DNA of 64,000 nucleotides from a bacterium (GTDB lineage: Bacteria; SM23-31). Position 1 is the stretch's first letter, and every line of letters starts with the position of its first letter. The stretch is taken from assembly GCA_965249485.1 (NCBI GenBank), contig OZ252239.1, forward strand, positions 2,281,047-2,345,046, read 5' to 3'. Below are positions 7,561 through 46,396 of this stretch, in pieces. Both the position numbers and the translations under genes were made by a program. The notes under the pieces are model-generated. The model worked only from the letters and a program-made list of their open reading frames with translations, had not been told where the DNA came from and searched no databases.

Positions 7561-7590
7561 TAAACTGAACAGCTGAAGAGGAATATCAAT

Positions 7591-11503: not shown

Positions 11504-11690
11504 TTTGGTTAGTTGAAACACAGCATAAATTAACAATATTTTTTAAATTGATCATTATTGTAGTGCTTCAAACCACTATTTGAGTGTCATGAGTAATGAA
11601 GCTTGAAAATCTATGATTAAAACATTACGCATTTTTGAAAGTTAAATTCAAAATTTAATATTGTATTTTGTAACACAATCAATAAATCAC

Positions 11691-18588: not shown

Positions 18589-18657
18589 TAGGCACTACCA
18601 TTTCATCTCTTTGTTAATTTAATACACATCATAATTTTTTAAATTTTGAAAAATTGC

Positions 18658-18686
18658 TTGACAAGTGGCCATATATAAACTATATT
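18658..18686 (+). promoter_or_regulatory. Sigma70-type promoter for the HTH-FHA-PBP-SEDS-kinase operon
   Basis: TTGACA-N17-TATATT. Confidence 0.7.
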
Positions 18687-18722
18687 AAGTATAATAAATA
18701 ATTAAAGTATATCAACTATATG
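18678..18722 (+). repeat. Five imperfect tandem 9-bp direct repeats overlapping the -10 and start region
   Basis: AACTATATT AAGTATAAT AAATAATTA AAGTATATC AACTATATG. Confidence 0.6.
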
Positions 18723-18751
18723 ACGATAATGAAGTAAAAGGGGCCGTTTGA

Positions 18752-18952
18752 ATGAAGAAAAACAAAGAATTGTTTCCAACCCAGAAAATCTGTGAAATGT
18801 TTGATGTGACTAAAACGACTCTATTCAAATGGGAAAAAGAGGGGAAACTTAAAAAGGTCGATAAGGATTGGCGGGGATGGCGTGTATTCTCGGATGATAA
18901 TGTGGACGAAATACGAAAAATTATTATTGATAAGAAACGGAAAAACAGGTAG
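18752..18952 (+). CDS. Small MerR/Xis/BldC-like winged-HTH DNA-binding protein
   Basis: 66 aa; ICEMFDVTKTTLFKWEKEGKL...GWRVFS pattern; no effector domain. Confidence 0.8.
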   Translation: MKKNKELFPTQKICEMFDVTKTTLFKWEKEGKLKKVDKDWRGWRVFSDDNVDEIRKIIIDKKRKNR

Positions 18953-18958
18953 GATTAC

Positions 18959-19852
18959 ATGACACTTTCACATTTGTTTTCAAGACTGATCGGATATTTT
19001 AAACAGAATATATCTGGACTGGATATGCCAAAACCGGAACATGGATTAGAGAGAATTCCATTTGAGTTTATAGCGGATAAATTGTATGAAGTGGCATATT
19101 CGAGTCGGGATGCTATCGGCCGTAAAATTGTAGCTCCCGACAAGTATATTATTCGGTTTTCTCCGGAAGACCGTGCATTGCGGAAATATACTGAAGATAT
19201 CCTTGTTGAAGAATTGGCACATAACCTCAATAACCGTATTAAAAAATTGAAGGCGGATATATGCAGTAGTATATGTTGTATCGAAATTGAGACTGATGTT
19301 GAACTGGAGCAAGGTGAGTTCTATATTGATTGTAAATTTTTGTCCAAGCAGCAGAAAGAGAAGAAAAAAAGTGTAAAAGTATATCCAATGGAAAGAAAAG
19401 ATCTGTCCGCCGCGAAAATTCCACCACCAGATTCTCCTGAAATGCAAGATGGCTCTTTGATACGTACGCTCTTAAGCAAAGGGGAGGAAGAAAATATCGC
19501 GCATACCGAGCAGGGTATTTTCTGTTCATTGCAGGTGCATGATGAAGGCAATGACCGGTTTTTTGTACTACCTGAAGGCAAATACTGTATTGGGCGGGGT
19601 AAAATTGCAGATATTCAACTCAACGAAAAAGATCTTTCGATATCTCGGAAGCATGCTATTCTGGTAATTGAGAAATCAGGCATCTCATTGAAAATGATTG
19701 GGAATAATGGTGGAAGAGTCAACAAAGAGCCTGTGTTAAGCGGTACCGAGTGTTTTGCGGCTTCCGGAGATTTGATTTGTATAGGAAGCAGTACCATTTC
19801 TATTGATCTCACTACCGGAGGGCATTTTAATTATGATAACAACAAAAATTGA
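18959..19852 (+). CDS. FhaA-like protein: DUF3662-like N-domain plus C-terminal FHA
   Basis: IVAPDKYIIRFSPED (DUF3662-like); FHA motifs IGRG, SISRKHA, NNG. Confidence 0.8.
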   Translation: MTLSHLFSRLIGYFKQNISGLDMPKPEHGLERIPFEFIADKLYEVAYSSRDAIGRKIVAPDKYIIRFSPEDRALRKYTEDILVEELAHNLNNRIKKLKADICSSICCIEIETDVELEQGEFYIDCKFLSKQQKEKKKSVKVYPMERKDLSAAKIPPPDSPEMQDGSLIRTLLSKGEEENIAHTEQGIFCSLQVHDEGNDRFFVLPEGKYCIGRGKIADIQLNEKDLSISRKHAILVIEKSGISLKMIGNNGGRVNKEPVLSGTECFAASGDLICIGSSTISIDLTTGGHFNYDNNKN

Positions 19853-20552
19853 AAATTCGCTTCGAAATGGCCTGTTTGGCGTGTTCGGGAAGTTTTATGA
19901 AAAAGAAGGCCGGTTGATCTGGCAAGCATTGTTATCCCAGAGTATAGAAAACAATCTGCTTATTAACGGAGACCGTTGTATTGTGCCGGACAGATATCTA
20001 GTGTCTGTTTCTTCGGACAATGATGAGGTTTTGATGAGAAAAGAAACTTGCACTCATTTGATGAAATGTTTTGTCAAAGATTTTGCAGAGTGTTTGGAGT
20101 ATGACCTGAACAATGAGGTTCGTATTGATTGGATTGTTAAAAATATGAATAATCCTTTTGGGATGAGTATTCATGCATGGGTATCCCGGTCAGCCGGTGT
20201 AAAAGCTGAAGTGATTAAAATTAATGATGGTAATAAGCGTATTGGGGAGTTCAGACTGGCTCCAGGCGAGAAAGTCATAGCAGGCAGGAACGAGCGTTGT
20301 ACGGTTGTTCTTAATGACAAGTATATATCGGACCAGCATGCAGTGATAGCGTCCGATCAAATGGGTAATATACATATCATTGATTTACATAGTGCAAATG
20401 GTACGTATGTATCAGGAAAACGCCTGGAGCCTTTTGTTGATTATAAGCACGAACTCCCGAAAAGTGTGTTTATTGGAAGTGATTTCGAAGTGAAATTTTA
20501 TAAAAATTTCGCTATGAAACCGGGTATATGTACGGGTGATGGCAATGTATAG
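19833..20552 (+). CDS. Second FHA protein with a degenerate DUF3662-like N-domain
   Basis: GGAGG RBS before ATG 19833; IVPDRYLVSVS; AGRN, ISDQHA, DLHSANGTYV. Confidence 0.8.
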   Translation: MITTKIENSLRNGLFGVFGKFYEKEGRLIWQALLSQSIENNLLINGDRCIVPDRYLVSVSSDNDEVLMRKETCTHLMKCFVKDFAECLEYDLNNEVRIDWIVKNMNNPFGMSIHAWVSRSAGVKAEVIKINDGNKRIGEFRLAPGEKVIAGRNERCTVVLNDKYISDQHAVIASDQMGNIHIIDLHSANGTYVSGKRLEPFVDYKHELPKSVFIGSDFEVKFYKNFAMKPGICTGDGNV

Positions 20553-22137
20553 CATATTGAAAATCGGACATTTTCTTTCTATAGCACTCTTAGTATTTGT
20601 CGGACTATCTCTTGTATGGGCTAGCATTGGAACATTCGGAAACGGCTCGGCAGTTTTCAGGAGAAAGTTGTACTACGGTATGGTGTTGGGAGTGATAGTG
20701 TTGTTCGTTTTAACAGCGACCTCACAAGGTCAGAGGCAATTAGGTTTACACGAAAATTTGACAACGGTTGTCGCTCAGTACGACACGCGTCAATGGATGA
20801 AGGAGCGCTCTATTCTTAAGGGATCAATTTTTGACAGAAGCGGCGAGCTGGACAGGGCGCTTGCAGTATCCGAGCAGTTTGGCAATAAAGAATTCGAGAG
20901 AATTTATCCATATGGGACTGCCAGCGGACATGTTATAGGATACTCAGATCGCGAACGTGGACGGACTGGGATCGAAGCTGCATATTTTTCTACGCTTATA
21001 GGTCTCCAATTTGGATATCTTGAAAATTTAAAGCAATTTGTCTCTGGAAAATTCAATACTGTTCCAAAGGGAACGGATGTTTATTTAACAATCGACAGCA
21101 GAATGCAAAAAGCAGCATATAATGCTATAGGTAATAAAAAAGGGGCTGTCGTTGTGCTCGATCCCAAGACTGGAGAAGTTGTTGCTCTTGTAAGTACACC
21201 CGGTTTTTCTCCAGATCACATTAACAATGATGAACAGTGGAATAATTTGCTTGAGCGGCATGAAGATGCACCGCTCTTTAACAGAGCGCTGCAAGGACTT
21301 TACCCTCCGGGATCTATAATGAAAATAATTATTGCTGCAGCGGCACTGGAAGCAGGCCTTGACCCGATCTATTTTTCAGGTCCTGATGGTTACAAGCCGG
21401 ATGAAATGTCTCAAGTTATTCATGAACATGAGTATGAAGCCTACAATAATGCCGGAAATAAATGGATGGGTCATGGTAATCTTTCCATGACTAAAGCTTT
21501 TCAAAAGTCAAGCAACGTATACTTTTCGCGACTAAGTATGGCTTTAGATAACAGCATATTTGAAAATACAATAAAAAAATTTGGATTTAAACACGAATTT
21601 CAGTGGAATACGTCGAGTTCTTCATTGCATGATTATTTTCCAGTTGTGCATTCATTCTTTCCTGAGTCTGATGTTCTGATGCCTGAACAAAAATGTTGGT
21701 CGTCACTCGGCCAGTATAAAGTTCTCATGTCTCCAATGCATGTATCGCTTGTCGTTGCTGCTGTGGCAAATAACGGATATATGCCCCGGCCATCACTTGA
21801 ACTGGGTAGATTTCCACGATATTCAGCAAAGGTTATTTCTTCAGGAACTGCACAGTCACTGCAAAAAATGCTTCGTACTGTTGTGGAAAATGACACAGGA
21901 TTCAGAGCAAATGTTTCCGGTATAAACGTGGCGGGAAAAACAGGTACTGCTGAGATAGGTTCACGCGATCCCCACAGCTGGTTTGCCTCATTTGCACCCG
22001 CAGAAAACGCACGGCTTGTTGTTGTTGTGCTAATTGAGAACGGTGGGTATGGAGGAAAAGCCGCAGCGACGGCAGCACGAAAAATTTATTTGGAAGCTCA
22101 AAAGCTGGGTTATTTCGGCTTAGCCTCACAATTATGA
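20536..22137 (+). CDS. Class B penicillin-binding transpeptidase (PbpA-like)
   Basis: KGSIFDR, RIYPYG, catalytic SxxK (GSIMK), SxN (KSSN) and KTG (GKTGTA) intact; two N-terminal hydrophobic segments. Confidence 0.92.
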   Translation: MMAMYSILKIGHFLSIALLVFVGLSLVWASIGTFGNGSAVFRRKLYYGMVLGVIVLFVLTATSQGQRQLGLHENLTTVVAQYDTRQWMKERSILKGSIFDRSGELDRALAVSEQFGNKEFERIYPYGTASGHVIGYSDRERGRTGIEAAYFSTLIGLQFGYLENLKQFVSGKFNTVPKGTDVYLTIDSRMQKAAYNAIGNKKGAVVVLDPKTGEVVALVSTPGFSPDHINNDEQWNNLLERHEDAPLFNRALQGLYPPGSIMKIIIAAAALEAGLDPIYFSGPDGYKPDEMSQVIHEHEYEAYNNAGNKWMGHGNLSMTKAFQKSSNVYFSRLSMALDNSIFENTIKKFGFKHEFQWNTSSSSLHDYFPVVHSFFPESDVLMPEQKCWSSLGQYKVLMSPMHVSLVVAAVANNGYMPRPSLELGRFPRYSAKVISSGTAQSLQKMLRTVVENDTGFRANVSGINVAGKTGTAEIGSRDPHSWFASFAPAENARLVVVVLIENGGYGGKAAATAARKIYLEAQKLGYFGLASQL

Positions 22138-23543
22138 GAACGATAACAGTAAAATATTCTTATACAAACTCATTATACCAAAAAAAGAGTCCGGTTATGC
22201 CGGCAGTGTTTCTGATCGGTATCAGTGTCCTACCAATTGGATGGATACTTCTTCTCTCTGGAGGATTTCGGATTCAAAGTGTTGATGTGCCTACAAGTAT
22301 GTTTGTAGCACTCAGTGTGATTCAGGTTCTGTTTGTTATAGGAATTGTGTGTCTGTTGCGAACAGGTTACCGGGGGAGCTACGTTCCGCTTGCCGCTATT
22401 ATGTTGTTAACGGGTATCGGTATGGTATTGCAGATAAGATTGAGCATAAACACTATATCATTCAGTGTTGACCAGACTGTTCGGATCGGAATGGATCTAA
22501 TGTTCTATGGCATGGAAAATCACATTCTCTCGATATGCATTGCTATTATTTCTCTTTTTAGTGCTGTTTTTCTTTTTACAAGTAAATATATTAGATTAAT
22601 TGGGAAAAAGTATTTATTCATTTATGCGGCAACTATAAGCCTTGTCGTGGTGTTAACGGGGATGTCTCTAATGCATGATGGGGGTCAATTTCTCTTTTCC
22701 AGAGTGCCGTGGGAATTGGCAAAAATAGCGCTGCCTTTGACATTTGCAGGTTATCTGTCATATAACAGCCGTTTATTGACAGTGATGAACAACGGGAAAA
22801 TGGAGCTCAATCTATTTGGTTGGGGACCTTTTTTGGTTATGATATTTATTCCTTTACTGCTCTTTATGATACTTGGTGATTTCGGACAGGTTATGATTTA
22901 TGGTGCGGTTATTTTACTTCTTCTGTTCGTGGCGACAGGGTCATTTGTGTATCCCTTGCTTGGTTTAGTTGCAATAATAGCGGCTCATCAGATTGCCGGA
23001 ATGTGGAGTGATGTACTGCCCGGACATATCGCCACACGATTTACTTTGTGGTATGATTTTTGGTCAGGATTTCCATCAACCGAGTGGTGGGACAGAAGCT
23101 TCCAGACAGCAAATGCATTCTTTGCCCTTAATGCAGGAGGACTCGGAGGAACGGGCCTTGGACTTGGAAATCCCAACTTGGTTCCACTGGTACAATCGGA
23201 CTTTGTGTTTGCCGCTGCCGCAGAGGAGTTAGGTTTTATTGGTACTTTGGGTATTTTTTTACTATATTTGAGCATAATTTTAACAGGTATTCGCACTGCC
23301 TTTTCTTGTTCTAATAGATTTGAATTTCTTGCTGTTTCTGCTCTTGCGATCATGTTCTGCTGCCAGATATTTATTAATATTGGGGGTGTCTTGAATATGA
23401 TACCATTAACTGGGGTAGTGTTGCCATTTTTAAGTAAAGGTGGATTTGCTTTTATTACATTTTCCACTATGATAGGATTTATTATGGCCGTATCACACAA
23501 AAATGCAACCGAACATAACAGAATGCCCGAAGATATAATATGA
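22134..23543 (+). CDS. SEDS-family peptidoglycan glycosyltransferase (RodA/FtsW-like)
   Basis: Polytopic; GDFG, GGLGGTGLGLG, QSDFVF (catalytic Asp), EELG, IPLTGVVLPFLSKGG; ATGA overlap with the PBP gene. Confidence 0.92.
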   Translation: MRTITVKYSYTNSLYQKKSPVMPAVFLIGISVLPIGWILLLSGGFRIQSVDVPTSMFVALSVIQVLFVIGIVCLLRTGYRGSYVPLAAIMLLTGIGMVLQIRLSINTISFSVDQTVRIGMDLMFYGMENHILSICIAIISLFSAVFLFTSKYIRLIGKKYLFIYAATISLVVVLTGMSLMHDGGQFLFSRVPWELAKIALPLTFAGYLSYNSRLLTVMNNGKMELNLFGWGPFLVMIFIPLLLFMILGDFGQVMIYGAVILLLLFVATGSFVYPLLGLVAIIAAHQIAGMWSDVLPGHIATRFTLWYDFWSGFPSTEWWDRSFQTANAFFALNAGGLGGTGLGLGNPNLVPLVQSDFVFAAAAEELGFIGTLGIFLLYLSIILTGIRTAFSCSNRFEFLAVSALAIMFCCQIFINIGGVLNMIPLTGVVLPFLSKGGFAFITFSTMIGFIMAVSHKNATEHNRMPEDII

Positions 23544-24562
23544 GTTCAGATATTGTAAAAATAATTCTTACTGGTAATCCGACAGACAGAGATTTGGCCG
23601 CCCGTCAAATATGCCAGAGTAGAAAAAAAGATATACTTAAAACGTTATGGGATAATGTGCATGCTGCTGATGCGGGAGCCCGTGAAGTGATAATCAAAAT
23701 TGCCGGCGTGTTAGGGGGACTTGAATTTAGTCAAGAAATCGAGGATTTGAGTAAAAAAGACCCGGAGGCAAACGTCAGAATTGCTGCCATTGTGGCAAAA
23801 CAATATCTGGGAAAAGTCACCTATGGCAAACTTTCAGACGAAATAAATAGATTTAATTTTGAAGAAACTGAGGATAGCAGACAAACAATTCAACCGGCTG
23901 CTCAGGAAGTCCCAACTCAGACCGAATCCCGAACCTCCGCGCCAAAAGTCAAATTTGCCGGTGATACAGAAGAGCAAAAGAATGATTCTGATCAAAGTAT
24001 AAAAAAATCAACCCTCCTTTCAAAAAAAGTGTTGATCGCGGGACTTTGTGTTGTAGTTGTGGTAGCGGCTGTTTCTGTGAGTAGGATTCTTTTCGAAAGT
24101 GAACAGGAGCTAGATAGACAAATTCCGCAATCACCCGGCACTAAGGCGATTGCACTGATGATCAGGGAGCGGATCGATGCAGTTAATAAATTTAAAGCGA
24201 ATTATCTTGATCCGGAAAGTCCGGCAAGTCGCTTTCCAATGACATTAGAGCTCCGTAGCATGCCTGGTGATACTTACGGTGAGCTATTTGAGCGTGTCTA
24301 TGGAAATATTCTTGGCACTGAAACCGGGATGAATACTATCGGTGCTTTTTGGCGGCATATGAATTTTGGAACATCTAAAACACAGAAAATGATTGATTTG
24401 ATGGATATGGAAACAGAGAGTGAACTTCTATTGTTTCCCAATCCTGTTTCGATGGGATTGCAGCTTAACTTGAATGAAGGTAGTGCCGCTAACCAAAGTT
24501 TTAACAATGTTGATCCTGATCTTGAAATTTTAATCAGAGTCAACAGTGTTGTCGTGAGATAG
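23540..24562 (+). CDS. Bitopic membrane protein: HEAT-like N-domain, TM helix, possible divergent LysM C-domain
   Basis: DPEANVRIAAIVA HEAT-like repeat; TM VLIAGLCVVVVVAAVSV; MPGDTYGELFERVYG...N...LLFP. Confidence 0.55.
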   Translation: MSSDIVKIILTGNPTDRDLAARQICQSRKKDILKTLWDNVHAADAGAREVIIKIAGVLGGLEFSQEIEDLSKKDPEANVRIAAIVAKQYLGKVTYGKLSDEINRFNFEETEDSRQTIQPAAQEVPTQTESRTSAPKVKFAGDTEEQKNDSDQSIKKSTLLSKKVLIAGLCVVVVVAAVSVSRILFESEQELDRQIPQSPGTKAIALMIRERIDAVNKFKANYLDPESPASRFPMTLELRSMPGDTYGELFERVYGNILGTETGMNTIGAFWRHMNFGTSKTQKMIDLMDMETESELLLFPNPVSMGLQLNLNEGSAANQSFNNVDPDLEILIRVNSVVVR

Positions 24563-24571
24563 GTTCTCATA

Positions 24572-25288
24572 ATGATGCAAATTACTCAAAAGATAGCAGT
24601 GGTATTAATATGCGTGCTTTTCAGTTTGTCGGGCATGGTTCCGATGTACTGGACCGATTTTTCAATGTCGGTAATTGTTACCAATAGATCAGATGAGTGG
24701 AAGCGGTTATTTCTAGAGAAGGGTAGAATTCTTGAAATTGCAAATGTCAATTCATCTCATCTTCAGAGTGTTATTATTACTGCAGGTGATGGTTGGATGG
24801 AAATACCTCCCGGCCGTACTGTGGAGAAGAAAATAGAGGCAATTTGTCTGAATGAAGGACTTAGCTTTCCACCAGTGGGAGATGAGGTAGTATTGACTCC
24901 ATTTTCAGGAAGTCAGGAATTGATTGCGGCTGGAGCAAATCAAAAAGCAATCCATAGCATTACAGCATTCCCGAAAGAAAATTTCGTACTCATTACCGCC
25001 AAAGGATATTCTGATGATGAAATTGAGGGGAGAGCAACCGATTATGATGAGGCGTTTCAGTCAGCGGTCGAAAACGCAGCACGTGAGAGCGGATTTACCT
25101 TTACTTCGGAAACAATTCTGAATAATCTGAATTTAATAAGAACACAACAAAGAATTGATGTTGAAGAAAAATCGATTAAGTTAGTATGTGTGATTCATGA
25201 AGAGTATAATGAAGAGAATGGACAATATCTCCTGATCGGAGAGTTTGAAGTCAGATCAAAACCGTCATCACCACAGTTAAACAACTAA
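24572..25288 (+). CDS. Exported hypothetical protein with LPP20-like C-terminal segment
   Basis: N-terminal hydrophobic signal; ICLNEGLSFPP; ITAKGYS...AFQSAVENA. Confidence 0.55.
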   Translation: MMQITQKIAVVLICVLFSLSGMVPMYWTDFSMSVIVTNRSDEWKRLFLEKGRILEIANVNSSHLQSVIITAGDGWMEIPPGRTVEKKIEAICLNEGLSFPPVGDEVVLTPFSGSQELIAAGANQKAIHSITAFPKENFVLITAKGYSDDEIEGRATDYDEAFQSAVENAARESGFTFTSETILNNLNLIRTQQRIDVEEKSIKLVCVIHEEYNEENGQYLLIGEFEVRSKPSSPQLNN

Positions 25289-25303
25289 ATGTAGTGAAAA
25301 ACT

Positions 25304-26308
25304 ATGCTGGAACAAAAAGGTCTTGATGAAGTTCATGCCCATTCACAATGCAGATATCTAAGAAGGGATTCCTTTTATTGTCCTGAAGTGCGAATGGATG
25401 AGTCGCTCTATTGTTTTTGGCATAATCCGAATGCACCGAGAGATGGACATGACCTCAAGGAACGGTTAGAAACAAAAGTGAAAATTGATCCGAATTGTGA
25501 AGGGTACAAATTGGCAAAGACAGATTTACACGATGCGTGGCTGACCGAAACAAATTTCAATGATTCCGATTTTCGCCGAACGAAATTGACCAATGGCCAT
25601 CTGTTTGGTATATCTCTCAAGGGTGCTGATTTGCTCAAAACGAATTTATCGAGTGCAAATCTACGGCATGCTGATTTGCGGGAAGCAAACTTGCTTGGTA
25701 TCAATATCGAGAATTCAAGAATTGATAATATCAATTGGGGCAGTGAATGTGTTATTTTGCATGAAATCCTGGCAATAATTGCGGTTAAGCAGAAATTAAA
25801 AGAAGTCGCCTGCAGTAAATACAAAGACGCTGAAGAGGTATATCTGACATTAAAAAATCACTTTAATTCGATAGGCAATTCGCAGCTTGTCGGAAAGTTT
25901 TTCTACAGAGAGATGATTGCTCAAAGAAAACAGGCACCCCTCTTTTCTGCTAAAAGATTATTTACAAAAATGGCTGATGTTTCGTGCGGATACGGAGAAA
26001 AAATACCAAATATATTATTTTTCTCAATGGCTGTTGTCATCATTAATGCTTTTCTCTTCGGCTTTTTCTCAATCTCAAGTGGTGATTCGGTTTACAGATT
26101 TTCTATGGCAGCAGGAATCTGGGGAAATATAAAAACATATTTTCTTATGCTGTATTATAGTACAGTGACGTTTACGACACTCGGTTATGGGGATTATGCA
26201 CCTGCTTCTGCTATCAGTAAGGCATTGGCAGGTTTTGAGGCGTTCATTGGACCGTTTCTTGTCGCATTGTTTGTTATAACTGTCTCAAAAAACCTGATGT
26301 CCCGGTGA
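25304..26308 (+). CDS. Pentapeptide-repeat / two-TM potassium channel fusion
   Basis: Pentapeptide repeats (ANLRH ADLRE ANLLG); pore YYSTVTFTTLGYGDYAP; N-terminal C-x8-C...CFWH. Confidence 0.88.
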   Translation: MLEQKGLDEVHAHSQCRYLRRDSFYCPEVRMDESLYCFWHNPNAPRDGHDLKERLETKVKIDPNCEGYKLAKTDLHDAWLTETNFNDSDFRRTKLTNGHLFGISLKGADLLKTNLSSANLRHADLREANLLGINIENSRIDNINWGSECVILHEILAIIAVKQKLKEVACSKYKDAEEVYLTLKNHFNSIGNSQLVGKFFYREMIAQRKQAPLFSAKRLFTKMADVSCGYGEKIPNILFFSMAVVIINAFLFGFFSISSGDSVYRFSMAAGIWGNIKTYFLMLYYSTVTFTTLGYGDYAPASAISKALAGFEAFIGPFLVALFVITVSKNLMSR

Positions 26309-26312
26309 GGTC

Positions 26313-27183
26313 ATGAAGTGTGTAAAATATATAATAATTCCTACCCGTCTACAGGGGATTACCCTCTTCGTACTTTTGCTGCCAATTGTTATGTTCTGCT
26401 CAGAATCCGTTGAGTCTGATTTGTCCTCTCTTTCTGCGCGAATTGATGAAACAGACATGTATTTTGAAGTGACTGGGCTCGGTGCTGCCGCTGTTGATGA
26501 TGGTACTACCATTGCAGAAGCAAGGCGGAATGCCGAATCGATTGCTTACATTCAGGCCGTGGAAATTCTTGCTGAAGCGATACAGGGAATAGCAGTACAG
26601 GGAGAAATACGGCTTCGCGACCTAGCAATGCAAGAGGGCCGACTTTCCCAGCTTATAAAGGTACGCCTTGAACAAATACGCCAAGTCGGTGCCACGCAAT
26701 TCGAAGAACAGGATGACGGTTCGTGGATTGCCGCCTCCACAATCATTTATCAGAAAGAGAACGCTCAAAAAATTGCAGATGCAATCGGTTTAGGAGAGTA
26801 TGACGAATTAACATTGTATACAGAAAATACTGTGCTGCTACAAAACAGAGACTATTCCGGTATTATACTTGATGTGAGGTATGTGTCCGGATTTAATACA
26901 TTTTTAGCACCAAAAGTCGCCCGCAACGACGGATCGGTATTATTTTCGGTTAGAGATATTGCCCCACGTGTTGATAGAAACATTTGGCATTCCTGTTTTT
27001 GCGACCATTTCGGATGCAGTGCGGCTTGGAGATGTCGGGCAGACTCCCTTAAAAATTGTTCCGGTGGATTTTAAAGCAGACACTGGATTATTGATACTCA
27101 CGGAGAGAGATGCGCGTATATTTGAGACAAATAATTTTGTGCAAAAAGCAATAAACACTGGAAAATTAGCGCTTATTTTATAG
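26313..27183 (+). pseudogene. LPP20-like exported protein or lipoprotein, frameshifted near 26960-26972
   Basis: EVTGLGAA...ARRNA and YSGIILDVR...APKV in ORF 26313; the tail paralogous to the next gene (FGIPVF...VGQTPLKI...GKLALIL) is in the frame of ORF 26959-27183. Confidence 0.65.
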
Positions 27184-27191
27184 AAAATGAT

Positions 27192-28061
27192 ATGATTCAA
27201 CATCGTAAACTAAAATATATTGTACTTGTGTTATCTGTTTTCTTCTTGTATTGCCCTGCGCCTTCACAGGATTTCAATATAGTCTATTCAGATAATACCG
27301 CTGAATCTGTTACAGATTATATTAAGAGGTCTATTGTTGTCACAGGGAGAGGAGCATCTACCAAATCTCAAACATCGATCGCTCAGAAAAAACTTTGGGC
27401 GCTTACGGAAGCGCGGAAAAATTGCATAACACAGGCTGCTGTAGCAATCGGTAAATTGTATGTTGAAAGTACGACATTTATGGAAGCAGGTTCTCTGGCT
27501 GGAACGGATTTTTCAATGCAGATCGGGGCATACGTGCGAGGCTTACAGGCATTCGAAGAAGAAACAGAAACGTTGAGTGATGGTTCTTTTGCTGCCGAAA
27601 TTACATTAGTCATTGATTTCGACGGAAATAGGGGATTAAATGCATTGCTGTTTAATGAACTATTTCCACTTGAGGAATCAAATGCCAGTCAATTGACGGA
27701 CAATAGCGTTATCAGGTATTCGGCAAAGTCGATAACAGGTCTTGTGTTTGATGTGCGTGATTTGCCCATTAAACCCTCTATGATACCAAAAATTTATTCT
27801 GAAAGTGGTGAGCTCATATTTGGGCCTGAGCATGTCAGTAGGGATTATGTTGAAAGATACGGGATTGTCGGTTACACGAAAGATGCTGCGAATGTCCTTG
27901 AGCGAGTAGGTGAAAATCCGCTTCTTCTGAAAGTTTTTGCGCTGCGCGAGGGCAATGCGGCACATATTGTCCTCGGTAAAGATACTGTTGAACAACTCGT
28001 AAAAATTGACAAACGTGGTCGTCTTTTTAGAGAGTCTCGGGTTGCTTTTTTGGTTAAATAG
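27192..28061 (+). CDS. LPP20-like exported protein, paralogue of the upstream gene
   Basis: Signal peptide; VVTGRGAS...ALTEARKN; TGLVFDVRDLPIKPSMIPKIYSESG; RVGENPL; RVAFLV end. Confidence 0.7.
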   Translation: MIQHRKLKYIVLVLSVFFLYCPAPSQDFNIVYSDNTAESVTDYIKRSIVVTGRGASTKSQTSIAQKKLWALTEARKNCITQAAVAIGKLYVESTTFMEAGSLAGTDFSMQIGAYVRGLQAFEEETETLSDGSFAAEITLVIDFDGNRGLNALLFNELFPLEESNASQLTDNSVIRYSAKSITGLVFDVRDLPIKPSMIPKIYSESGELIFGPEHVSRDYVERYGIVGYTKDAANVLERVGENPLLLKVFALREGNAAHIVLGKDTVEQLVKIDKRGRLFRESRVAFLVK

Positions 28062-28082
28062 AATAAATTATAGAAGAATACT

Positions 28083-29420
28083 ATGGCTGACTTTAATTTT
28101 CCACCAGGATACAGGATTGGTGAGCATGGTGAATATCAAATCATTCGCCGTCAGCCTATCAGTGATGGAGTGAACAACACGTTTTCCGAAGTGTACCTGG
28201 TGAAAAAAATCAAGGTACGAAAAAAGTATGCTCTTAAGGTCTTACGTCCCGATATTATTGCAAAACATAAACGGTCAGTCGATGATTTCAAGGATGAAAT
28301 TCGTGTATTGATGGAGATGCGGCACAAAAACATTATTTCAATTAACGACTATGGAACTTTGCAAGACAGAGATGGTGTGCCGAGTTTTTATCTGATTATG
28401 GAATACATTGAAGACGCTTCGCTGCTCAAGGAGAAGTATTCGCTCAAAAAACGATTTCTGTTGTTTCTTCAGATCTTGGAAGGTCTTGAATATCTCCATT
28501 CAAAAAATATTATTCACCGAGATATTAAACCTGACAATATACTGGTTCAGCACGATTCTCTCGTTAAAATAACAGATTTTGGAATTGCTAAATTTATTGG
28601 TAATAACGATACGGTATCATCGGTAATCGGGGCGCCTGCATACGCACCTCCTGAGCAAATTGATAAATTCGGAGCACTTTCATACTCATCGGATCTATAT
28701 GCTGCTGGGAAGACGCTTTACACTATGTTAACAGGCAATCTGCCGAAGATAAACAAGTCTGTCAAAAGTCTGCCAGAGAAGTTTAGAACCAAGAAATGGC
28801 ATGATAGTATTCTCAATATTCTTCAAAAATCGACGAATCAGGACCCGGATCTGCGGTACAATTCAGCCGAGGAATTGAAACATGAATTGGCTGCTGTTAT
28901 GAAGACGTATTTCCGGAAGAAACACATAACCACAGTTGAGAAAAAACAAACAGTTTTACGTGCAGCAACTCGTGCTGCAGTTGTTATAGTTGCTATCGGT
29001 GTAGCTGGTTTAGGATATTATTTAACGAATAAAACTTCTATACCGAATGAATCAGTCGAGTTTCTCAATGCCCGTGATCAGGGAATTGGAATGTTCGCAT
29101 CACCAGTTAATTCGGATGAACAGGTTTTGTCCTATTTTCAGGATTTATCCGAGCGCTTTTCTAGTGGTGATGGGAATTCGTTGTTTCTTGGAGCTGTTAG
29201 TGCAGAACTGGCTGGAGAGAGAAATAGATCCATAGAATTTATGGAAAAAGCAGTAAAGCTTTATCCGGAAGATTCCGGTTGGAAAATTGTTCTGGGAAAA
29301 ATGTATTACAGTGCCGGAAGAATATTTGATGCACGTGCTATGTGGAAACAGGTGAAAAATAAAGATCATAATGATTATTCAAGTGCAATGCTGTTGAAAA
29401 TGACAATACCATTTAAGTAA
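28083..29420 (+). CDS. Hanks-type Ser/Thr protein kinase with TM helix and C-terminal TPR-like region
   Basis: ALKVL, EIRVL, HRDIKPDN, DFGIAK, SDLYAAG; TM AAVVIVAIGVAGLGYYL; KAVKLYPED...LGKMYY TPR pattern. Confidence 0.92.
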   Translation: MADFNFPPGYRIGEHGEYQIIRRQPISDGVNNTFSEVYLVKKIKVRKKYALKVLRPDIIAKHKRSVDDFKDEIRVLMEMRHKNIISINDYGTLQDRDGVPSFYLIMEYIEDASLLKEKYSLKKRFLLFLQILEGLEYLHSKNIIHRDIKPDNILVQHDSLVKITDFGIAKFIGNNDTVSSVIGAPAYAPPEQIDKFGALSYSSDLYAAGKTLYTMLTGNLPKINKSVKSLPEKFRTKKWHDSILNILQKSTNQDPDLRYNSAEELKHELAAVMKTYFRKKHITTVEKKQTVLRAATRAAVVIVAIGVAGLGYYLTNKTSIPNESVEFLNARDQGIGMFASPVNSDEQVLSYFQDLSERFSSGDGNSLFLGAVSAELAGERNRSIEFMEKAVKLYPEDSGWKIVLGKMYYSAGRIFDARAMWKQVKNKDHNDYSSAMLLKMTIPFK

Positions 29421-29452
29421 TAAATTCAAAATTTAGTATTTGGAGTGTATTC

Positions 29453-29836
29453 ATGTTTAAAATATCTGTTGAGGATAAATTTTCTGCCGCACATCAGCTA
29501 CACGAATATAAAGGGAAATGTGCAGATCTGCATGGTCACAACTGGAAAGTACGAGTAAATGTTCTTGCAGAAAAACTGGATGATATTGGAATTGCAATCG
29601 ATTTCCATGATTTGAAATCGATAACGCATAATGTGTTGGAACTGCTTGATCATAAAAATTTAAATGATCTCGATTATTTCTCATATCAGAATCCTTCTTC
29701 TGAAAATATTGCACGATTTATTTTTAATAAAATCAATGAACAACTTCCTCCGTATGTTAAGCTTGATGATATAGAAGTGATTGAATCAGAGGGGTGTGTT
29801 ATTACCTATTTTGAAAAGTCATATGAAAATCAATGA
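29453..29836 (+). CDS. queD: 6-carboxy-5,6,7,8-tetrahydropterin synthase
   Basis: FSAAH, CADLHGHNW, LDHKNLN, NPSSENIA. Confidence 0.93.
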   Translation: MFKISVEDKFSAAHQLHEYKGKCADLHGHNWKVRVNVLAEKLDDIGIAIDFHDLKSITHNVLELLDHKNLNDLDYFSYQNPSSENIARFIFNKINEQLPPYVKLDDIEVIESEGCVITYFEKSYENQ

Positions 29837-30527: not shown

Positions 30528-31367
30528 ATGGGAAAGTATTTCACACCATATGGGTGGATTGGTGTTATAATCATCATTTCCGGAGAAGTACTTCTCTTCT
30601 CCGGAAATACATTTATGGGTATATGGATGACGCCGGTCATGTGGACTGGGTATATTCTTCTTGCAGATAATATTGTTTATAAAAGACAGAACTATTCCTT
30701 GCTTTCGTTGAGCGGTAGACTCCTCCCGGCAATTCTTCTCATTTCAATCAGTTCCTGGCTTATTTTCGAAGGGTATAACCTTCTCTTAAAAAACTGGTAT
30801 TACGTCAATCTTCCGGAGAATAGAGCAATCCGTTTTCTCGGATATGCGTGGTCATTTTCCACTATTACACCGGGGATACTGGTAACAAAGGATGCGCTGG
30901 TTTCGTTTGGTATGTTTAAACATAAACGATGTTCTCAACTTCGCATTTCAAACAGGTCACTATCGGCAATTATTGGTACCAGTTTACTACTCAGTATCTA
31001 CCCATTGGTGTTTCCTAATAAGTATCTTTTCCCACTAATCTGGTGCAGTGTCATCTTTCTTGTTGATCCGATAGTATACCTTCTAAAGGGAAGATCGATA
31101 CTTGGGGAATTAATAGAGGGGAAACCAGGTACGCTTCTCCAACTGCTTCTTGCTGGTCTGGTCTGCGGACTGCTGTGGGAGTTCTGGAATTATTGGGCTA
31201 TTGCGAAATGGATTTATACTGTACCGTACTTTCCGCAATTCAAACTATTTGAAATGCCGGTTATCGGTTTTCTGGGTTTTCCACCGTTCGCCGTTGAGTG
31301 CTATGTACTGTATCAGCTCTTTAAAAAATTATTACATATTATCGGCGTGAAACTGAAGTATTCCTGA
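30528..31367 (+). CDS. Conserved hypothetical polytopic membrane protein
   Basis: About 8 hydrophobic segments; two related motifs WLIFEGYN...WYY and WEFWN...WIY; FEMPVIGFLGFPPF. Confidence 0.75.
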   Translation: MGKYFTPYGWIGVIIIISGEVLLFSGNTFMGIWMTPVMWTGYILLADNIVYKRQNYSLLSLSGRLLPAILLISISSWLIFEGYNLLLKNWYYVNLPENRAIRFLGYAWSFSTITPGILVTKDALVSFGMFKHKRCSQLRISNRSLSAIIGTSLLLSIYPLVFPNKYLFPLIWCSVIFLVDPIVYLLKGRSILGELIEGKPGTLLQLLLAGLVCGLLWEFWNYWAIAKWIYTVPYFPQFKLFEMPVIGFLGFPPFAVECYVLYQLFKKLLHIIGVKLKYS

Positions 31368-46321: not shown

Positions 46322-46396
46322 CGGGGCGTAGCGCAGCCCGGTTAGCGCGCGTGCTTCGGGAGCACGAGGTCGAAGGTTCAAATCCTTTCGCCCCGA
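46322..46396 (+). tRNA. tRNA-Pro(CGG), CCA not encoded
   Basis: CGGGGCG/CGCCCCG acceptor stem; anticodon arm CGTGC-TTCGGGA-GCACG; T-arm GGTTCAAATCC. Confidence 0.95.

What the first reader, a model, noticed from the sequence alone, without database searches (positions are those of the whole stretch)
18752..29420. Candidate new system: phospho-signalled accessory peptidoglycan-synthesis operon (HTH-FHA-FHA-PBP-SEDS-HEAT/LysM-exported-K+ channel-LPP20x2-kinase) in a diderm
Seen: 11 co-oriented genes with gaps of about 20 bp or less, or overlaps (ATGA couplings at 22134 and 23540), behind one consensus promoter and between the core genes exbD and queD. PBP and SEDS catalytic motifs are intact. 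Established: fhaA-fhaB-pstP-rodA-pbpA-pknA-pknB is a conserved cell-wall signalling cluster of Actinobacteria, with relatives in Firmicutes and Chloroflexi. Here the host has Lol and TonB systems, no mreBCD or dcw genes are adjacent, there is no phosphatase, PBP precedes SEDS, and five extra envelope genes are inserted. The kinase has a TPR-like ectodomain instead of PASTA. Inference: a self-contained module that builds or remodels peptidoglycan locally (appendage, branch, cyst, contact site or beta-lactam bypass), with kinase-FHA control and possible membrane-potential input.
Basis: partly seen in the sequence, partly recalled or inferred. Interest (0 to 1): 0.82.

Follow-up and report, generated by a model that had tools for sequence, protein, structure and literature searches.

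The report
Kinase-controlled spare cell-wall synthase operon
This is a real operon for a third, non-housekeeping peptidoglycan synthase pair with its own kinase and phosphothreonine-reader proteins: a lineage-specific version of a cluster best known from Actinobacteria, carrying new accessory envelope proteins and decaying in this genus.

Summary
Eleven co-oriented, tightly packed genes lie between exbD and queD: MerR-HTH, two FhaA-like FHA proteins, a PbpA-type bPBP, a SEDS protein, a HEAT-TM-periplasmic protein, an exported protein, a pentapeptide-K+ channel, two FlgP/LPP20-like proteins and a Hanks kinase with a TPR-like ectodomain.

The genome also has mreB-pbp2-rodA and ftsI/ftsW elsewhere, so this is a third SEDS-bPBP pair. 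The kinase is the genome's only full Hanks kinase, and the two FHA proteins are its only FHA proteins.

It is not a new kind of system. SEDS, PBP and FhaA trees and gene order place it beside a cluster I found in Acidobacteriota (FhaA-PBP-SEDS-PP2C-STK-FhaA). Both are sister to the terrabacterial FhaA-FhaB-PP2C-SEDS-PBP-STK cluster.

New in this small KSB1-labelled phylum:
- a MerR gene at the 5' end;
- no PP2C phosphatase;
- g06 and g07, a lineage-restricted pair predicted to bind each other (ipSAE 0.87, best control 0.00);
- a later insertion of the channel and the two lipoprotein-like genes.

The module is dispensable. It is largely deleted or pseudogenised in one congener and carries frameshifts and nonsense codons in another. 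g09 is frameshifted in this genome.

Verdict: new variant of a known kind, moderate interest.

The parts
18658..18686 (+). sigma-70-like promoter candidate TTGACA-17-TATATT in the exbD-g01 spacer
   Evidence: 11 of 12 matches, the best + strand site. The total count of such sites in the region is not above shuffles.
18752..18952 (+). g01, 66-aa MerR-type HTH protein
   Evidence: PF13411, E 1.7e-7. It heads the cluster in 8 loci of the phylum (window, L039-L042, L140, L142, L143). It was found in 0 of 81 loci outside the phylum.
18959..19852 (+). g02, FhaA-like protein (FhaA_N plus FHA)
   Evidence: One of only two FHA domains in the genome. Groups with the acidobacterial downstream FhaA (SH-aLRT 95).
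19803..20552 (+). g03, second FhaA-like protein (FhaA_N borderline, plus FHA). The likely start is ATG 19833.
   Evidence: Groups with the acidobacterial FhaA that sits directly upstream of the PBP (SH-aLRT 87).
20536..22137 (+). g04, class B PBP of PbpA type (PBP_dimer_2 plus transpeptidase)
   Evidence: SIMK, SSN, KTG. Clade with acidobacterial PBPs (SH-aLRT 95).
22134..23543 (+). g05, SEDS glycosyltransferase, the third of three in the genome
   Evidence: ATGA overlap with g04.
23540..24562 (+). g06: cytoplasmic HEAT-repeat domain (1-106), disordered linker, one TM helix (about 159-193), conserved periplasmic alpha/beta domain (about 201-340)
   Evidence: ATGA overlap with g05. Predicted to bind g07.
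24572..25288 (+). g07, exported protein: beta-sandwich plus alpha/beta domain, no known family
   Evidence: Always adjacent to g06 (8 of 8 genomes). ipSAE with g06 0.87, best control 0.00.
25304..26308 (+). g08, pentapeptide-repeat domain fused to a 2-TM K+ channel pore (TLGYGD)
   Evidence: Seen only in family f1 of the phylum.
26313..27183 (+). g09, FlgP/LPP20-like protein and paralogue of g10, frameshifted near 26950-26966 (first frame ends at 27074)
27192..28061 (+). g10, FlgP/LPP20-like N-domain plus a C-domain resembling part of PDB 5jir_B
28083..29420 (+). g11, Hanks Ser/Thr kinase, one TM helix, TPR-like ectodomain
30528..31367 (+). d3, multi-pass membrane protein of no family; membership in the system is uncertain
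   Evidence: It sits directly after the kinase in G010 (L041) and is broken in G001.

Best explanation
The locus is a lineage-specific version of the ancient FhaA / PbpA-type bPBP / RodA-type SEDS / Hanks-kinase cell-wall cluster. It encodes a third, accessory peptidoglycan polymerase-transpeptidase pair (g05-g04) beside the canonical MreB-RodA-PBP2 and FtsW-FtsI machines.

Inferred mechanism, by analogy with PknB-FhaA in mycobacteria:
1. The membrane kinase g11 senses a periplasmic cue through its TPR-like ectodomain.
2. It phosphorylates threonines on itself or on cluster proteins.
3. The two FhaA-like adaptors g02 and g03 read those phosphothreonines and scaffold or gate the g04-g05 synthase.

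The signalling circuit is closed. The genome has one full kinase, two FHA proteins and no PstP-type phosphatase.

g06 (cytoplasmic HEAT platform, TM helix, periplasmic domain) and g07 (periplasmic) form a heterodimer. Together they act as a lineage-specific accessory subunit linking cytoplasm and periplasm.

g08 (pentapeptide-K+ channel) and g09/g10 (FlgP/LPP20-like) were inserted later in one family. They are peripheral.

The module is non-essential and is being lost in this genus.

Shown: gene content, homology, third-pair status, closed kinase/FHA inventory, phylogenetic placement, co-occurrence and decay. Predicted by the model: g06-g07 binding. Inferred: the phospho-relay, what is phosphorylated, and the physiological role.
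For: Third pair: 3 SEDS and 3 bPBP loci plus 1 further transpeptidase-domain locus, presumably an aPBP. mreB lies beside pbp2-rodA.

Closed circuit: the FHA family matches only g02 and g03. Pkinase matches g11 plus one partial 273-aa ORF. PF13672 and PF00481 give 0 matches. One distal SpoIIE-type PPM exists.

Homology:
- The nearest SEDS outside the phylum carry the labels Blastocatellia, Chloroflexia and Streptomyces.
- Among the 80 best genome loci found with the SEDS alignment, my iterated HMMs found FHA in 68, FhaA_N in 63 and a kinase in 59 of the 89 loci scanned (80 plus 8 of the phylum plus the window).

Gene order:
- PBP precedes SEDS in 30 of 40 Acidobacteriota loci. The other 10 show no PBP, and none shows the reverse order.
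- SEDS precedes PBP in 27 of 28 Actinomycetota loci.
- The complete FhaA-PBP-SEDS-PP2C-STK-FhaA order is seen in 13 of 40 Acidobacteriota loci.

Trees:
- SEDS of the phylum plus Acidobacteriota form one clade (SH-aLRT 98), separate from own RodA/FtsW (99).
- The PBP tree agrees (95).
- g02 groups with the acidobacterial downstream FhaA (95) and g03 with the upstream one (87).

Acidobacterial genomes also hold 3 SEDS (3 of 3 tested).

Accessory genes:
- g06 and g07 strong matches co-occur and are adjacent in 8 of 8 genomes, out of 12 in the phylum.
- ATGA coupling joins g05 and g06.
- g06(196-340) with g07(26-238): ipSAE 0.87, 0.87 and 0.86; best of 3 controls 0.00. That mark was reached by 58 of 80 solved complexes and 2 of 110 mismatched pairs. 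The runs agree in at least 98% of contacts and partner pLDDT is at least 80. No like complex is known to me.

Co-decay in G001 (90-94% nucleotide identity):
- Window 18940-23065 is replaced by 1794 bp of 57.8%-GC DNA.
- g05 to g09 and g11 are truncated, frameshifted or stopped.
- In all, 9 of 10 cluster genes are missing or broken, against 2 of 28 flanking syntenic genes (Fisher p 3e-6).
Against: No expression data. No RNA run holds the stretch, so co-transcription is untested.

No phosphorylation site is conserved in the g06 linker. Kinase-to-FHA-to-synthase is analogy only.

In G006 the orthologous TonB-ExbBD-flanked locus keeps MerR-g02-g06-g07-g08 but lacks g03, PBP and SEDS. So g06-g08 can persist without an adjacent synthase. 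That genome has a second, divergent Fha-PBP-SEDS cluster.

That second variant (G006:C195, G009:C130) has an FGE-sulfatase-domain gene instead of g06/g07.

FhaA_N in g03 is just below Pfam's cut-off (23.0 against 25).

The trees are quick searches (LG+G4, SH-aLRT only). They have two outgroup rows, flagged long branches and compositional outliers.

My domain HMMs are home-made. PP2C identity was checked by Pfam on one representative only.

Many loci are cut by contig ends.

In this genome g09 is frameshifted, so the full 11-gene set is not intact here.

The g07 model is of low confidence (pLDDT 65).
Confidence: 0.65

Rival explanations
1. The locus is two or more functionally independent units that merely sit side by side. 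One is an FHA-PBP-SEDS(-kinase) core. The other is an unrelated envelope gene set (g06-g10) that does not act with the synthase.
For: G006:C147 keeps MerR-g02-g06-g07-g08 with no g03, PBP or SEDS. g08-g10 are absent from family f2 clusters (L041, L044). The variant clusters in G006:C195 and G009 lack g06/g07. g06-g10 homologues are absent from all 81 loci outside the phylum.
Against: g06 overlaps g05 by ATGA. The order SEDS-g06-g07 is kept in both families that hold it: G000, G002, G003, G010 and G011, plus remnants in G001. In G001, g06, g07, g08, g09 and g11 decayed together with the loss of the core while the flanks stayed intact. The kinase lies downstream of g06-g10, so the inserted genes sit inside the kinase/FHA unit.
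Confidence: 0.2
2. It is a developmental peptidoglycan synthase, analogous to SpoVD-SpoVE, used only for a resting cell, cyst or other differentiated form and switched on by the kinase.
For: It is a third pair and is dispensable. Kinase- and phosphatase-flanked extra SEDS/bPBP genes are likened to spoVD-spoVE in PMC12516126 (passages). A small MerR regulator heads the operon.
Against: No sporulation or cyst genes were seen nearby. NCBIfam scores for SpoVD and SpoVE are far below their cut-offs (118.7 against 688; 101 against 448.8). The actinobacterial relatives act in vegetative growth (bioRxiv 10.1101/2024.08.13.607006, passages). Nothing is known of the life cycle of these uncultured organisms.
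Confidence: 0.1
3. It is a horizontally acquired island that provides a low-affinity PBP for beta-lactam bypass.
For: NCBIfam lists weak similarity of g04 to PBP2a/MecA-type models (about 73-86 bits against cut-offs of 750-1525). The pair is additional to the housekeeping ones.
Against: GC equals the genome's (0.403 against 0.405). The same TonB-ExbBD flank is seen in G001, G002, G003, G005 and G006. SEDS, PBP and FhaA trees are mutually congruent and the phylum's rows form one clade. No mobile-element genes are seen in the flanks. The MecA-model scores are an order of magnitude under their cut-offs.
Confidence: 0.03
4. It is the genome's housekeeping elongasome.
For: None beyond the family names RodA/PBP2 in NCBIfam, which score below their cut-offs.
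Against: mreB (C1:2649843), pbp2 (C1:2646665) and rodA (C1:2645389) lie together 340 kb away. ftsI and ftsW lie at 3.62 Mb. The cluster is deleted or broken in G001.
Confidence: 0.02

Closest known systems
Actinobacterial fhaA-fhaB-pstP-rodA-pbpA-pknA-pknB operon (Mycobacteriales; described in bioRxiv 10.1101/2024.08.13.607006 and PMC6554272)
   Same: Both have an FhaA_N-plus-FHA adaptor, a PbpA-type bPBP with PBP_dimer_2, a RodA-type SEDS and a membrane Hanks kinase in one co-oriented cluster. The SEDS and PBP fall in one FHA-linked clade apart from own RodA/FtsW and PBP2/FtsI.
   Different: Here PBP precedes SEDS. The second FHA protein is FhaA-like, not FhaB-like. There is no PP2C. There is one kinase with a TPR-like ectodomain rather than PASTA. 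The host is a diderm with a separate MreB elongasome, so the pair is a third one. MerR and g06-g10 are added.
Acidobacteriota cluster FhaA-PBP-SEDS-PP2C-STK-FhaA (found here in 40 loci, complete in 13; no paper found with searches)
   Same: Both have PBP-before-SEDS order and two FhaA_N-FHA paralogues that pair one-to-one with g02 and g03 in the tree. The SEDS and PBP are sister clades. The pair is a third SEDS in 3 of 3 genomes tested.
   Different: The Acidobacteriota keep the PP2C and place the g02-type FhaA after the kinase. They have no MerR and no g06-g10 homologues (0 of 40 loci).
Pedobacter ginsengisoli giant GTase-GTase-TPase protein flanked by Ser/Thr kinase and phosphatase genes (PMC12516126, passages read)
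   Same: An extra SEDS/bPBP-type synthase next to a Ser/Thr kinase in an FCB-group diderm that keeps intact FtsI/FtsW and MrdA/RodA.
   Different: That one is a fused single polypeptide with a phosphatase. FHA proteins are not mentioned in the text ('FHA' occurs 0 times). I did not compare the sequences.
Type VI secretion threonine-phosphorylation pathway PpkA-PppA-Fha (PMC3953482, search listing and abstract only)
   Same: A diderm precedent for a membrane Hanks kinase plus an FHA protein gating assembly of an envelope-spanning machine.
   Different: No T6SS genes are here. The TagH model scores 27 bits against a cut-off of 120. The output is a PG synthase, not a secretion system.
FlgP / LPP20 lipoproteins of flagellar basal disks (PDB 8z5n and related)
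   Same: The N-terminal domain (about 37-120) of the g09/g10 profile matches FlgP chains and a 'putative lipoprotein' (E 0.0012 to 0.19). An Atlas neighbour cluster carries LPP20 in 14% of its members.
   Different: 0 of 17 family members reach Pfam LPP20 even at E 10. There are no flagellar genes nearby. A second domain matches part of 5jir_B (E 1.5e-6).

Membership tests
FhaA/FhaB-PstP-RodA-PbpA-Pkn cell-wall cluster (terrabacterial form) | FhaA-type protein: FhaA_N (PF12401) followed by FHA | tested here: met
   g02 scores 25.6 bits (cut-off 25) and has an FHA domain at E 3.3e-8. g03 scores 23.0 bits alone, or 25.1 with its neighbours in the frame.
FhaA/FhaB-PstP-RodA-PbpA-Pkn cell-wall cluster (terrabacterial form) | FhaB/FipA-type second FHA protein without FhaA_N | tested here: not met
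   The second FHA protein (g03) has an FhaA_N-like N-domain. The NCBIfam FhaB model scores 54 bits against a cut-off of 125.
FhaA/FhaB-PstP-RodA-PbpA-Pkn cell-wall cluster (terrabacterial form) | PP2C phosphatase (PstP) within the cluster | tested here: not met
   There is no PP2C in the cluster in any of the phylum's loci. PF13672 and PF00481 give 0 matches in the 94.4%-complete genome. One distal SpoIIE-type PPM exists.
FhaA/FhaB-PstP-RodA-PbpA-Pkn cell-wall cluster (terrabacterial form) | SEDS gene followed by a PbpA-type bPBP (PBP_dimer_2 plus transpeptidase) | tested here: inconclusive
   Both proteins are present with the right domains, but the order is reversed: PBP comes before SEDS. 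SEDS comes before PBP in 27 of 28 Actinomycetota loci.
FhaA/FhaB-PstP-RodA-PbpA-Pkn cell-wall cluster (terrabacterial form) | Membrane Hanks kinase with PASTA ectodomain | tested here: not met
   The kinase domain is intact (PF00069, 1.5e-44). There is no PASTA hit. Sub-threshold TPR hits cover residues 367-431.
Acidobacteriota-type FHA-linked PBP-SEDS cluster (defined here) | PBP directly upstream of SEDS, with a g03-type FhaA directly upstream of the PBP | tested here: met
Acidobacteriota-type FHA-linked PBP-SEDS cluster (defined here) | Two FhaA_N-FHA paralogues per cluster | tested here: met
   g02 and g03 group with the two acidobacterial paralogues (SH-aLRT 95 and 87).
Acidobacteriota-type FHA-linked PBP-SEDS cluster (defined here) | PP2C between SEDS and the kinase | tested here: not met
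   Absent in all 8 loci of the phylum. A PP2C hit directly after the SEDS is seen in 36 of 40 Acidobacteriota loci.
SEDS (FtsW/RodA/SpoVE) glycosyltransferases | PF01098 over its cut-off and conserved family columns | tested here: met
   157.2 bits against a cut-off of 26.4. g05 carries all 31 columns that are invariant in the 18-sequence alignment. Assignment of the catalytic Asp rests on recall.
Class B PBP transpeptidases | SxxK, SxN and KTG active-site motifs | tested here: met
   SIMK260, SSN325 and KTG468. PF00905 at 3.9e-51.
   There is no LysM hit for 19 members at E up to 10, and none for the profile against PDB sequences. The model shows beta-alpha-alpha-beta at 235-300. Fold searches were filled by the HEAT domain.
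HEAT repeats (g06 N-terminus) | Match to HEAT profiles and structures | tested here: met
   19 of 19 members hit PF13646 (best 1.4e-10). The window's own copy reaches only E 0.023. The profile against PDB gives alphaRep 1.4e-42 and YibA 6.6e-5. VIA Z is 10.7 and 9.8.
LPP20 / FlgP lipoproteins (g09, g10) | Match to PF02169 or to FlgP structures; lipobox | tested here: inconclusive
   Pfam: 0 of 17 members. Profile against PDB: FlgP E 0.013 and a putative lipoprotein E 0.0012. Atlas lead: LPP20 in 14% of one neighbour cluster. A Cys follows the hydrophobic N-terminal segment, but no lipobox predictor was run.
K+ channels (g08) | Ion_trans_2 pore with the TxGYGD filter | tested here: met
   PF07885 at 8.7e-11; TLGYGD at residue 292.

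The most novel reading that the evidence does not exclude
g06-g07, later joined by the pentapeptide-K+ channel and two FlgP-like lipoproteins, form a previously undescribed envelope-spanning accessory complex. A cytoplasmic HEAT platform would be read by the FhaA adaptors and joined through a periplasmic heterodimer to ring-forming outer-membrane lipoproteins. This would turn the kinase-gated third SEDS-bPBP pair into a dedicated nanomachine that builds a localised wall structure in this uncultured phylum. The circuit would run as a minimal system with one kinase, two FHA proteins and no phosphatase.
Probability: 0.2. Interest if true: 0.75.

Novelty: new variant of a known kind. Interest (0 to 1): 0.5.

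Why it matters
The FhaA/STK-linked SEDS-bPBP cluster is usually treated as an actinobacterial or Gram-positive feature. This work shows that it has a deep diderm branch in Acidobacteriota and a small KSB1-labelled phylum. There it is a third synthase pair beside the MreB and FtsZ machines.

The version here is a compact natural test bed. It has one kinase, two FHA readers, one synthase pair and no cognate phosphatase. It also has a lineage-restricted pair of accessory proteins (g06-g07) that the complex model predicts, with high confidence, to bind each other.

Its stepwise decay in three congeners gives a natural-knockout series that argues for dispensability and for functional linkage of the genes.

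The organisms are uncultured, and in this genome one gene is already frameshifted. That limits direct follow-up.

Tried and rejected
No earlier notes were seen.
- Expression: no RNA holder was listed for window 19500-29400, so co-transcription could not be tested. The only runs laid were contigs of one sample, possibly the source.
- g07 fold: Foldseek against PDB gave nothing at E <= 0.001. The weak rows were FlgT 3w1e (E 0.1, prob 0.96) and dodecin 6ri3 (E 0.16). The model's pLDDT is only 65.
- g06 periplasmic domain: the fold searches were filled by the HEAT domain.
- Pfam and NCBIfam gave nothing for g07, g09, g10 or d3, even at E 10.
- Literature: searches (0 papers; 1 paper; 1 paper) found no description of this cluster in Acidobacteriota or KSB1. 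Supplementary tables of PMC12516126, which list PBPA_dimer proteins by taxon, were not opened and may include such taxa.
- The region after the tRNA (46322-46396) loses synteny with G001 and G002. I considered an island but rejected it: the genes there are housekeeping (BipA, LutB-like, SSF transporter).
- The T6SS-type Fha reading was rejected. TagH scores 27 bits against a cut-off of 120 and no T6SS genes appeared among the flanking genes scanned.
- G033 (another phylum) has a PBP-SEDS pair with 32-34% identity, but none of its neighbouring ORFs matched the cluster's FHA or kinase proteins. It was not pursued.

Full report
OBSERVATION

The 11 + strand ORFs are present as described. Pfam gives the following.
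- g01: MerR_1.
- g02 and g03: FhaA_N plus FHA. FhaA_N scores 25.6 bits in g02 and 23.0 bits in g03, against a cut-off of 25.
- g04: Transpeptidase plus PBP_dimer_2, the 'PBP-A' dimerisation domain.
- g05: FTSW_RODA_SPOVE.
- g06 and g07: nothing.
- g08: Pentapeptide plus Ion_trans_2.
- g09 and g10: nothing.
- g11: Pkinase plus sub-threshold TPR.

The flanks are TonB-ExbB-ExbD upstream and QueD-QueE downstream.

The junctions are 6, -50 (-20 from ATG 19833), -17, -4 (ATGA), -4 (ATGA), 9, 15, 4, 117 and 21 nt.

The active-site motifs are intact. The PBP has SIMK260, SSN325 and KTG468. The kinase has ALK50, HRDIKPDN145 and DFG165. The channel filter is TLGYGD292.

The best + strand promoter-like site of the region (TTGACA-17-TATATT, 18658-18686) lies in the exbD-g01 spacer. 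The total number of such sites is not above shuffles.

One correction concerns g09, which is frameshifted. Its G003 orthologue aligns at residues 1-213 in one frame (26313-26966) and at residues 209-285 in another (26950-27180). The intact gene would end at 27183, 8 nt before g10, so the 117-nt gap is not real spacing. Contigs from three runs of one sample, which may be the source, reproduce 18600-29500 without a single difference. The frameshift is therefore not a one-off assembly slip.

A THIRD SYNTHASE PAIR AND A CLOSED SIGNALLING CIRCUIT

The genome is 4.06 Mb in 6 contigs and 94.4% complete. It has three SEDS loci and three class B PBP loci, plus one further transpeptidase-domain locus that I presume is an aPBP.
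- One SEDS-PBP pair lies at 2.645-2.648 Mb directly beside mreB.
- One lies at 3.617-3.624 Mb beside an FtsA-like gene.
- The third is the pair in this window.

The FHA family matches only two places in the whole genome, g02 and g03. Pkinase matches g11 and one partial 273-aa ORF. PP2C_2 and PP2C match nothing. One SpoIIE-type PPM lies far away. All recognisable kinase and FHA parts of the genome therefore sit in this operon. This is the strongest in-genome argument that they work together.

TAXON AND DISTRIBUTION WITHIN IT

Homologues of g07, g05 and g10 that carry a source name are labelled 'candidate division KSB1 bacterium'. The GTDB phylum that holds the genome has only 12 species representatives.

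Combining searches gives this picture.
- The TonB-ExbBD-flanked locus ('K1'), or contig-cut parts of it, is present in 9 of 12 genomes: G000-G006, G010 and G011.
- A divergent variant ('K2': MerR-Fha-Fha-PBP-SEDS followed by an FGE-sulfatase-domain gene) is present in G006 and G009.
- Nothing was found in G007 (88% complete) or G008 (83%).

g06 and g07 give strong matches in the same 8 genomes and are adjacent in all 8. g08-g10 occur only in family f1 (G000-G004). The family f2 clusters read MerR-Fha-Fha-PBP-SEDS-g06-g07-STK (L041, L044). The 'five inserted genes' are therefore two layers. An older g06-g07 pair is conserved in both families. The g08-g10 block was inserted later.

RELATIVES OUTSIDE THE PHYLUM

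The nearest SEDS proteins outside the phylum carry the labels Blastocatellia, Chloroflexia and Streptomyces.

By record title these are:
- 40 Acidobacteriota;
- 28 Actinomycetota;
- 4 Chloroflexota;
- 6 Firmicutes-labelled, of which 3 are Negativicutes families;
- 2 unlabelled.

I called domains on stop-to-stop ORFs of these loci with HMMs. The HMMs were grown from the window's own proteins by three rounds at E <= 1e-4. A PP2C family was recovered by clustering the unexplained ORFs. It was checked by Pfam on one representative.

Two arrangements emerge.
- Actinomycetota, Firmicutes and Negativicutes show FhaA-FHA-PP2C-SEDS-PBP-STK. The full set is seen in 17 of 28 Actinomycetota loci. SEDS precedes PBP in 27 of 28.
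- Acidobacteriota show FhaA-PBP-SEDS-PP2C-STK-FhaA. This is complete in 13 of 40 loci. PBP precedes SEDS in 30 of 40, the other 10 show no PBP, and none shows the reverse order.

No homologue of MerR or of g06-g10 was found in any of the 81 loci outside the phylum.

TREES

All trees are quick IQ-TREE searches with LG+G4 and SH-aLRT support only.
- SEDS tree (88 rows; 3 of 89 loci were dropped because the match was shorter than 330 aa). FHA-linked SEDS separate from own RodA/FtsW (support 99). This phylum plus Acidobacteriota form one clade (98). The terrabacterial rows form the other.
- PBP tree (47 of 66 rows, with Acidobacteriota and Actinomycetota capped at 16 each). It gives the same grouping (95).
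- FhaA tree (41 of 117 FHA ORFs: only those with FhaA_N, at most 8 per group). g02 groups with the acidobacterial FhaA that follows the kinase (95). g03 groups with the one directly upstream of the PBP (87).

Long branches and compositional outliers are flagged in all three trees, and there are only two outgroup rows. The placement is therefore well supported but not proven.

Three of three acidobacterial genomes tested, and two of two Negativicutes genomes, also hold three SEDS loci. A 'third, FHA-linked pair in a diderm' is therefore not unique to this window.

THE ACCESSORY PROTEINS

g06 belongs to a very small family. Only 27 representatives reach E <= 0.001 among 1.84 billion.

The g06 model (pLDDT 73) has four parts:
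- a confident helical-repeat domain (residues 1-106);
- a disordered K/E-rich linker;
- one TM helix (about 159-193);
- a confident periplasmic alpha/beta domain.

The N-domain is HEAT. 19 of 19 members hit HEAT_2 (best 1.4e-10; the window's own copy reaches only E 0.023). The family profile hits alphaRep proteins at 1.4e-42 and E. coli YibA at 6.6e-5. VIA Z is 10.7 and 9.8. The 'LysM' label is not confirmed by any profile.

g07 (19 homologues) models poorly (pLDDT 65). It appears as a beta-sandwich plus an alpha/beta domain with no significant fold match.

The complex model supports binding of the g06 periplasmic domain (196-340) to mature g07 (26-238).
- ipSAE was 0.87, 0.87 and 0.86. The best of 3 controls was 0.00.
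- That mark was reached by 58 of 80 solved complexes and 2 of 110 mismatched pairs. These counts hold only roughly, because my own alignments were used.
- The runs agree in at least 98% of their contacts, and partner pLDDT is at least 80.
- The interface uses the family-invariant g06 residues G263, N265 and T266, and its C-terminal strand, against g07 strands 34-38 and 53-56.

This is a prediction, not a measurement.

The g09/g10 profile matches part of PDB 5jir_B (E 1.5e-6; residues 187-281). More weakly, it matches a putative lipoprotein and FlgP chains (E 0.0012-0.19; residues 37-120). Pfam LPP20 is matched by 0 of 17 members.

DECAY IN THE GENUS

G001 shares 90-94% nucleotide identity with the window.
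- Window 18940-23065 (g02, g03, g04 and two thirds of g05) is replaced there by 1794 bp of 57.8%-GC DNA that has no match in this genome.
- g06, g08 and g11 are split over two or three frames. g06, g07, g09 and g11 carry 3 to 6 in-frame stops each. Only g10 is intact.
- In all, 9 of 10 cluster genes of at least 100 aa are missing or broken, against 2 of 28 flanking syntenic genes (Fisher p 3e-6).

G002 shares about 55-75% amino-acid identity.
- g03 and g04 are frameshifted.
- g05, g06 and g09 each carry one TAG at positions that are W, Q and D here, within conserved context.
- That is 5 of 10 broken, against 3 of 31 in the flanks (p 0.013). One of those three, QueE, turned out to be a start-site artefact.

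With g09 frameshifted in this genome, all three congeners show some erosion. The cluster reads intact on the contigs of G003, G005, G010 and G011, as far as those contigs reach.

This shows that the module is dispensable. In G001 the accessory genes decayed together with the loss of the core, which supports their being one functional unit.

There is a counter-example. G006 keeps MerR-g02-g06-g07-g08 at the K1 locus without g03, PBP or SEDS. It also has the K2 cluster elsewhere.

MECHANISM

The actinobacterial operon is described as encoding FhaA, FhaB, RodA, PbpA, PknA, PknB and the sole phosphatase. FhaA is described as a phosphothreonine-binding organiser of the elongation machinery (bioRxiv 10.1101/2024.08.13.607006, passages read; PMC6554272, abstract).

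By analogy I propose this sequence:
1. g11 is activated through its TPR-like ectodomain.
2. It phosphorylates threonines on itself or on cluster proteins.
3. g02 and g03 dock on those sites and recruit or gate g04-g05.
4. g06-g07 link the cytoplasmic side to the periplasm.

None of these steps is shown, and no conserved phospho-site was seen in the g06 linker. The absence of a PstP-type phosphatase implies either slow reset, by turnover or the distal SpoIIE-type PPM, or a switch-like use.

COMPARISON WITH THE LITERATURE AND NOVELTY

PMC12516126 (abstract and passages; supplements not opened) reports that PBPA_dimer bPBPs occur mainly in Actinomycetota and Bacillota. It also notes a Pedobacter (FCB, diderm) giant GTase-GTase-TPase flanked by Ser/Thr kinase and phosphatase genes, beside intact FtsI/FtsW and MrdA/RodA. 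It calls that 'novel phenomena'. FHA is not mentioned in its text.

My searches found no description of the acidobacterial or KSB1 form.

The locus is thus a new variant of a known kind. The core is known. The diderm branch with two FhaA paralogues, the loss of PP2C and the g06-g07 pair appear undescribed.

Interest is moderate. It is a tidy minimal kinase-FHA-synthase system with new parts. It sits in uncultured organisms, is partly eroded in this genome, and has no functional data.

Noticed in passing
window 26950-26966: g09 carries a frameshift relative to its G003 orthologue. Three run assemblies of one sample reproduce it exactly.
   Followed up: yes
L039 (G001:C1:2899000-2918900), reverse-strand positions 6636-8429: A 1794-bp segment of 57.8% GC, in a genome of about 40% GC, replaces g02-g04 and most of g05. 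It has no blastn or tblastx match in the window's genome, and its 259-aa ORF has no Pfam family.
   Followed up: partly
L040 / L137 (G002), orthologues of g05, g06, g09: All three in-frame stops in the G002 cluster are TAG. They stand at positions that are W230, Q88 and D45 here, within conserved context. Together with the frameshifts in g03 and g04, this points to recent pseudogenisation rather than assembly noise.
   Followed up: partly
L140 (G006:C147:1-15000): The orthologous TonB-ExbB-ExbD-flanked locus reads MerR-g02-g06-g07-g08 with no g03, PBP or SEDS. The same genome has a second, divergent MerR-Fha-Fha-PBP-SEDS cluster on C195.
   Followed up: partly
L042:9643-10797 and L043:4953-5801: In the divergent cluster variant (G006:C195, G009:C130) an FGE-sulfatase-domain protein follows the SEDS gene, where g06/g07 stand in the window.
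   Followed up: no
window 30528-31367: A 279-aa multi-pass membrane protein with no family. It lies directly after the kinase in G010 (L041) but is separated from it by queD-queE here. It is split over two frames in G001.
   Followed up: partly
L115 (record titled 'uncultured Heliobacteriaceae bacterium'): This contig has the acidobacterial gene order. It nests inside Acidobacteriota in the SEDS and FhaA trees. It is probably a mis-binned or mislabelled contig.
   Followed up: no
G000:C1:1796676-1797020: This is the only other Pkinase match in the genome. It is partial (profile positions 102-209) and lies in a 273-aa ORF. I did not examine it.
   Followed up: no
window 46322-46396 and beyond: Synteny with G001 and G002 ends just after a tRNA gene. 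The genes beyond it are ordinary housekeeping genes (amidohydrolase, M28 peptidase, SSF transporter, BipA, LutB-like). This looks like a rearrangement rather than an island.
   Followed up: partly
window 10277-12917: Two paralogous MacB_PCD/FtsX permeases (LolC/E-like) lie upstream of a ClpB/ClpA-type ATPase. Only the first was scanned by Pfam.
   Followed up: partly
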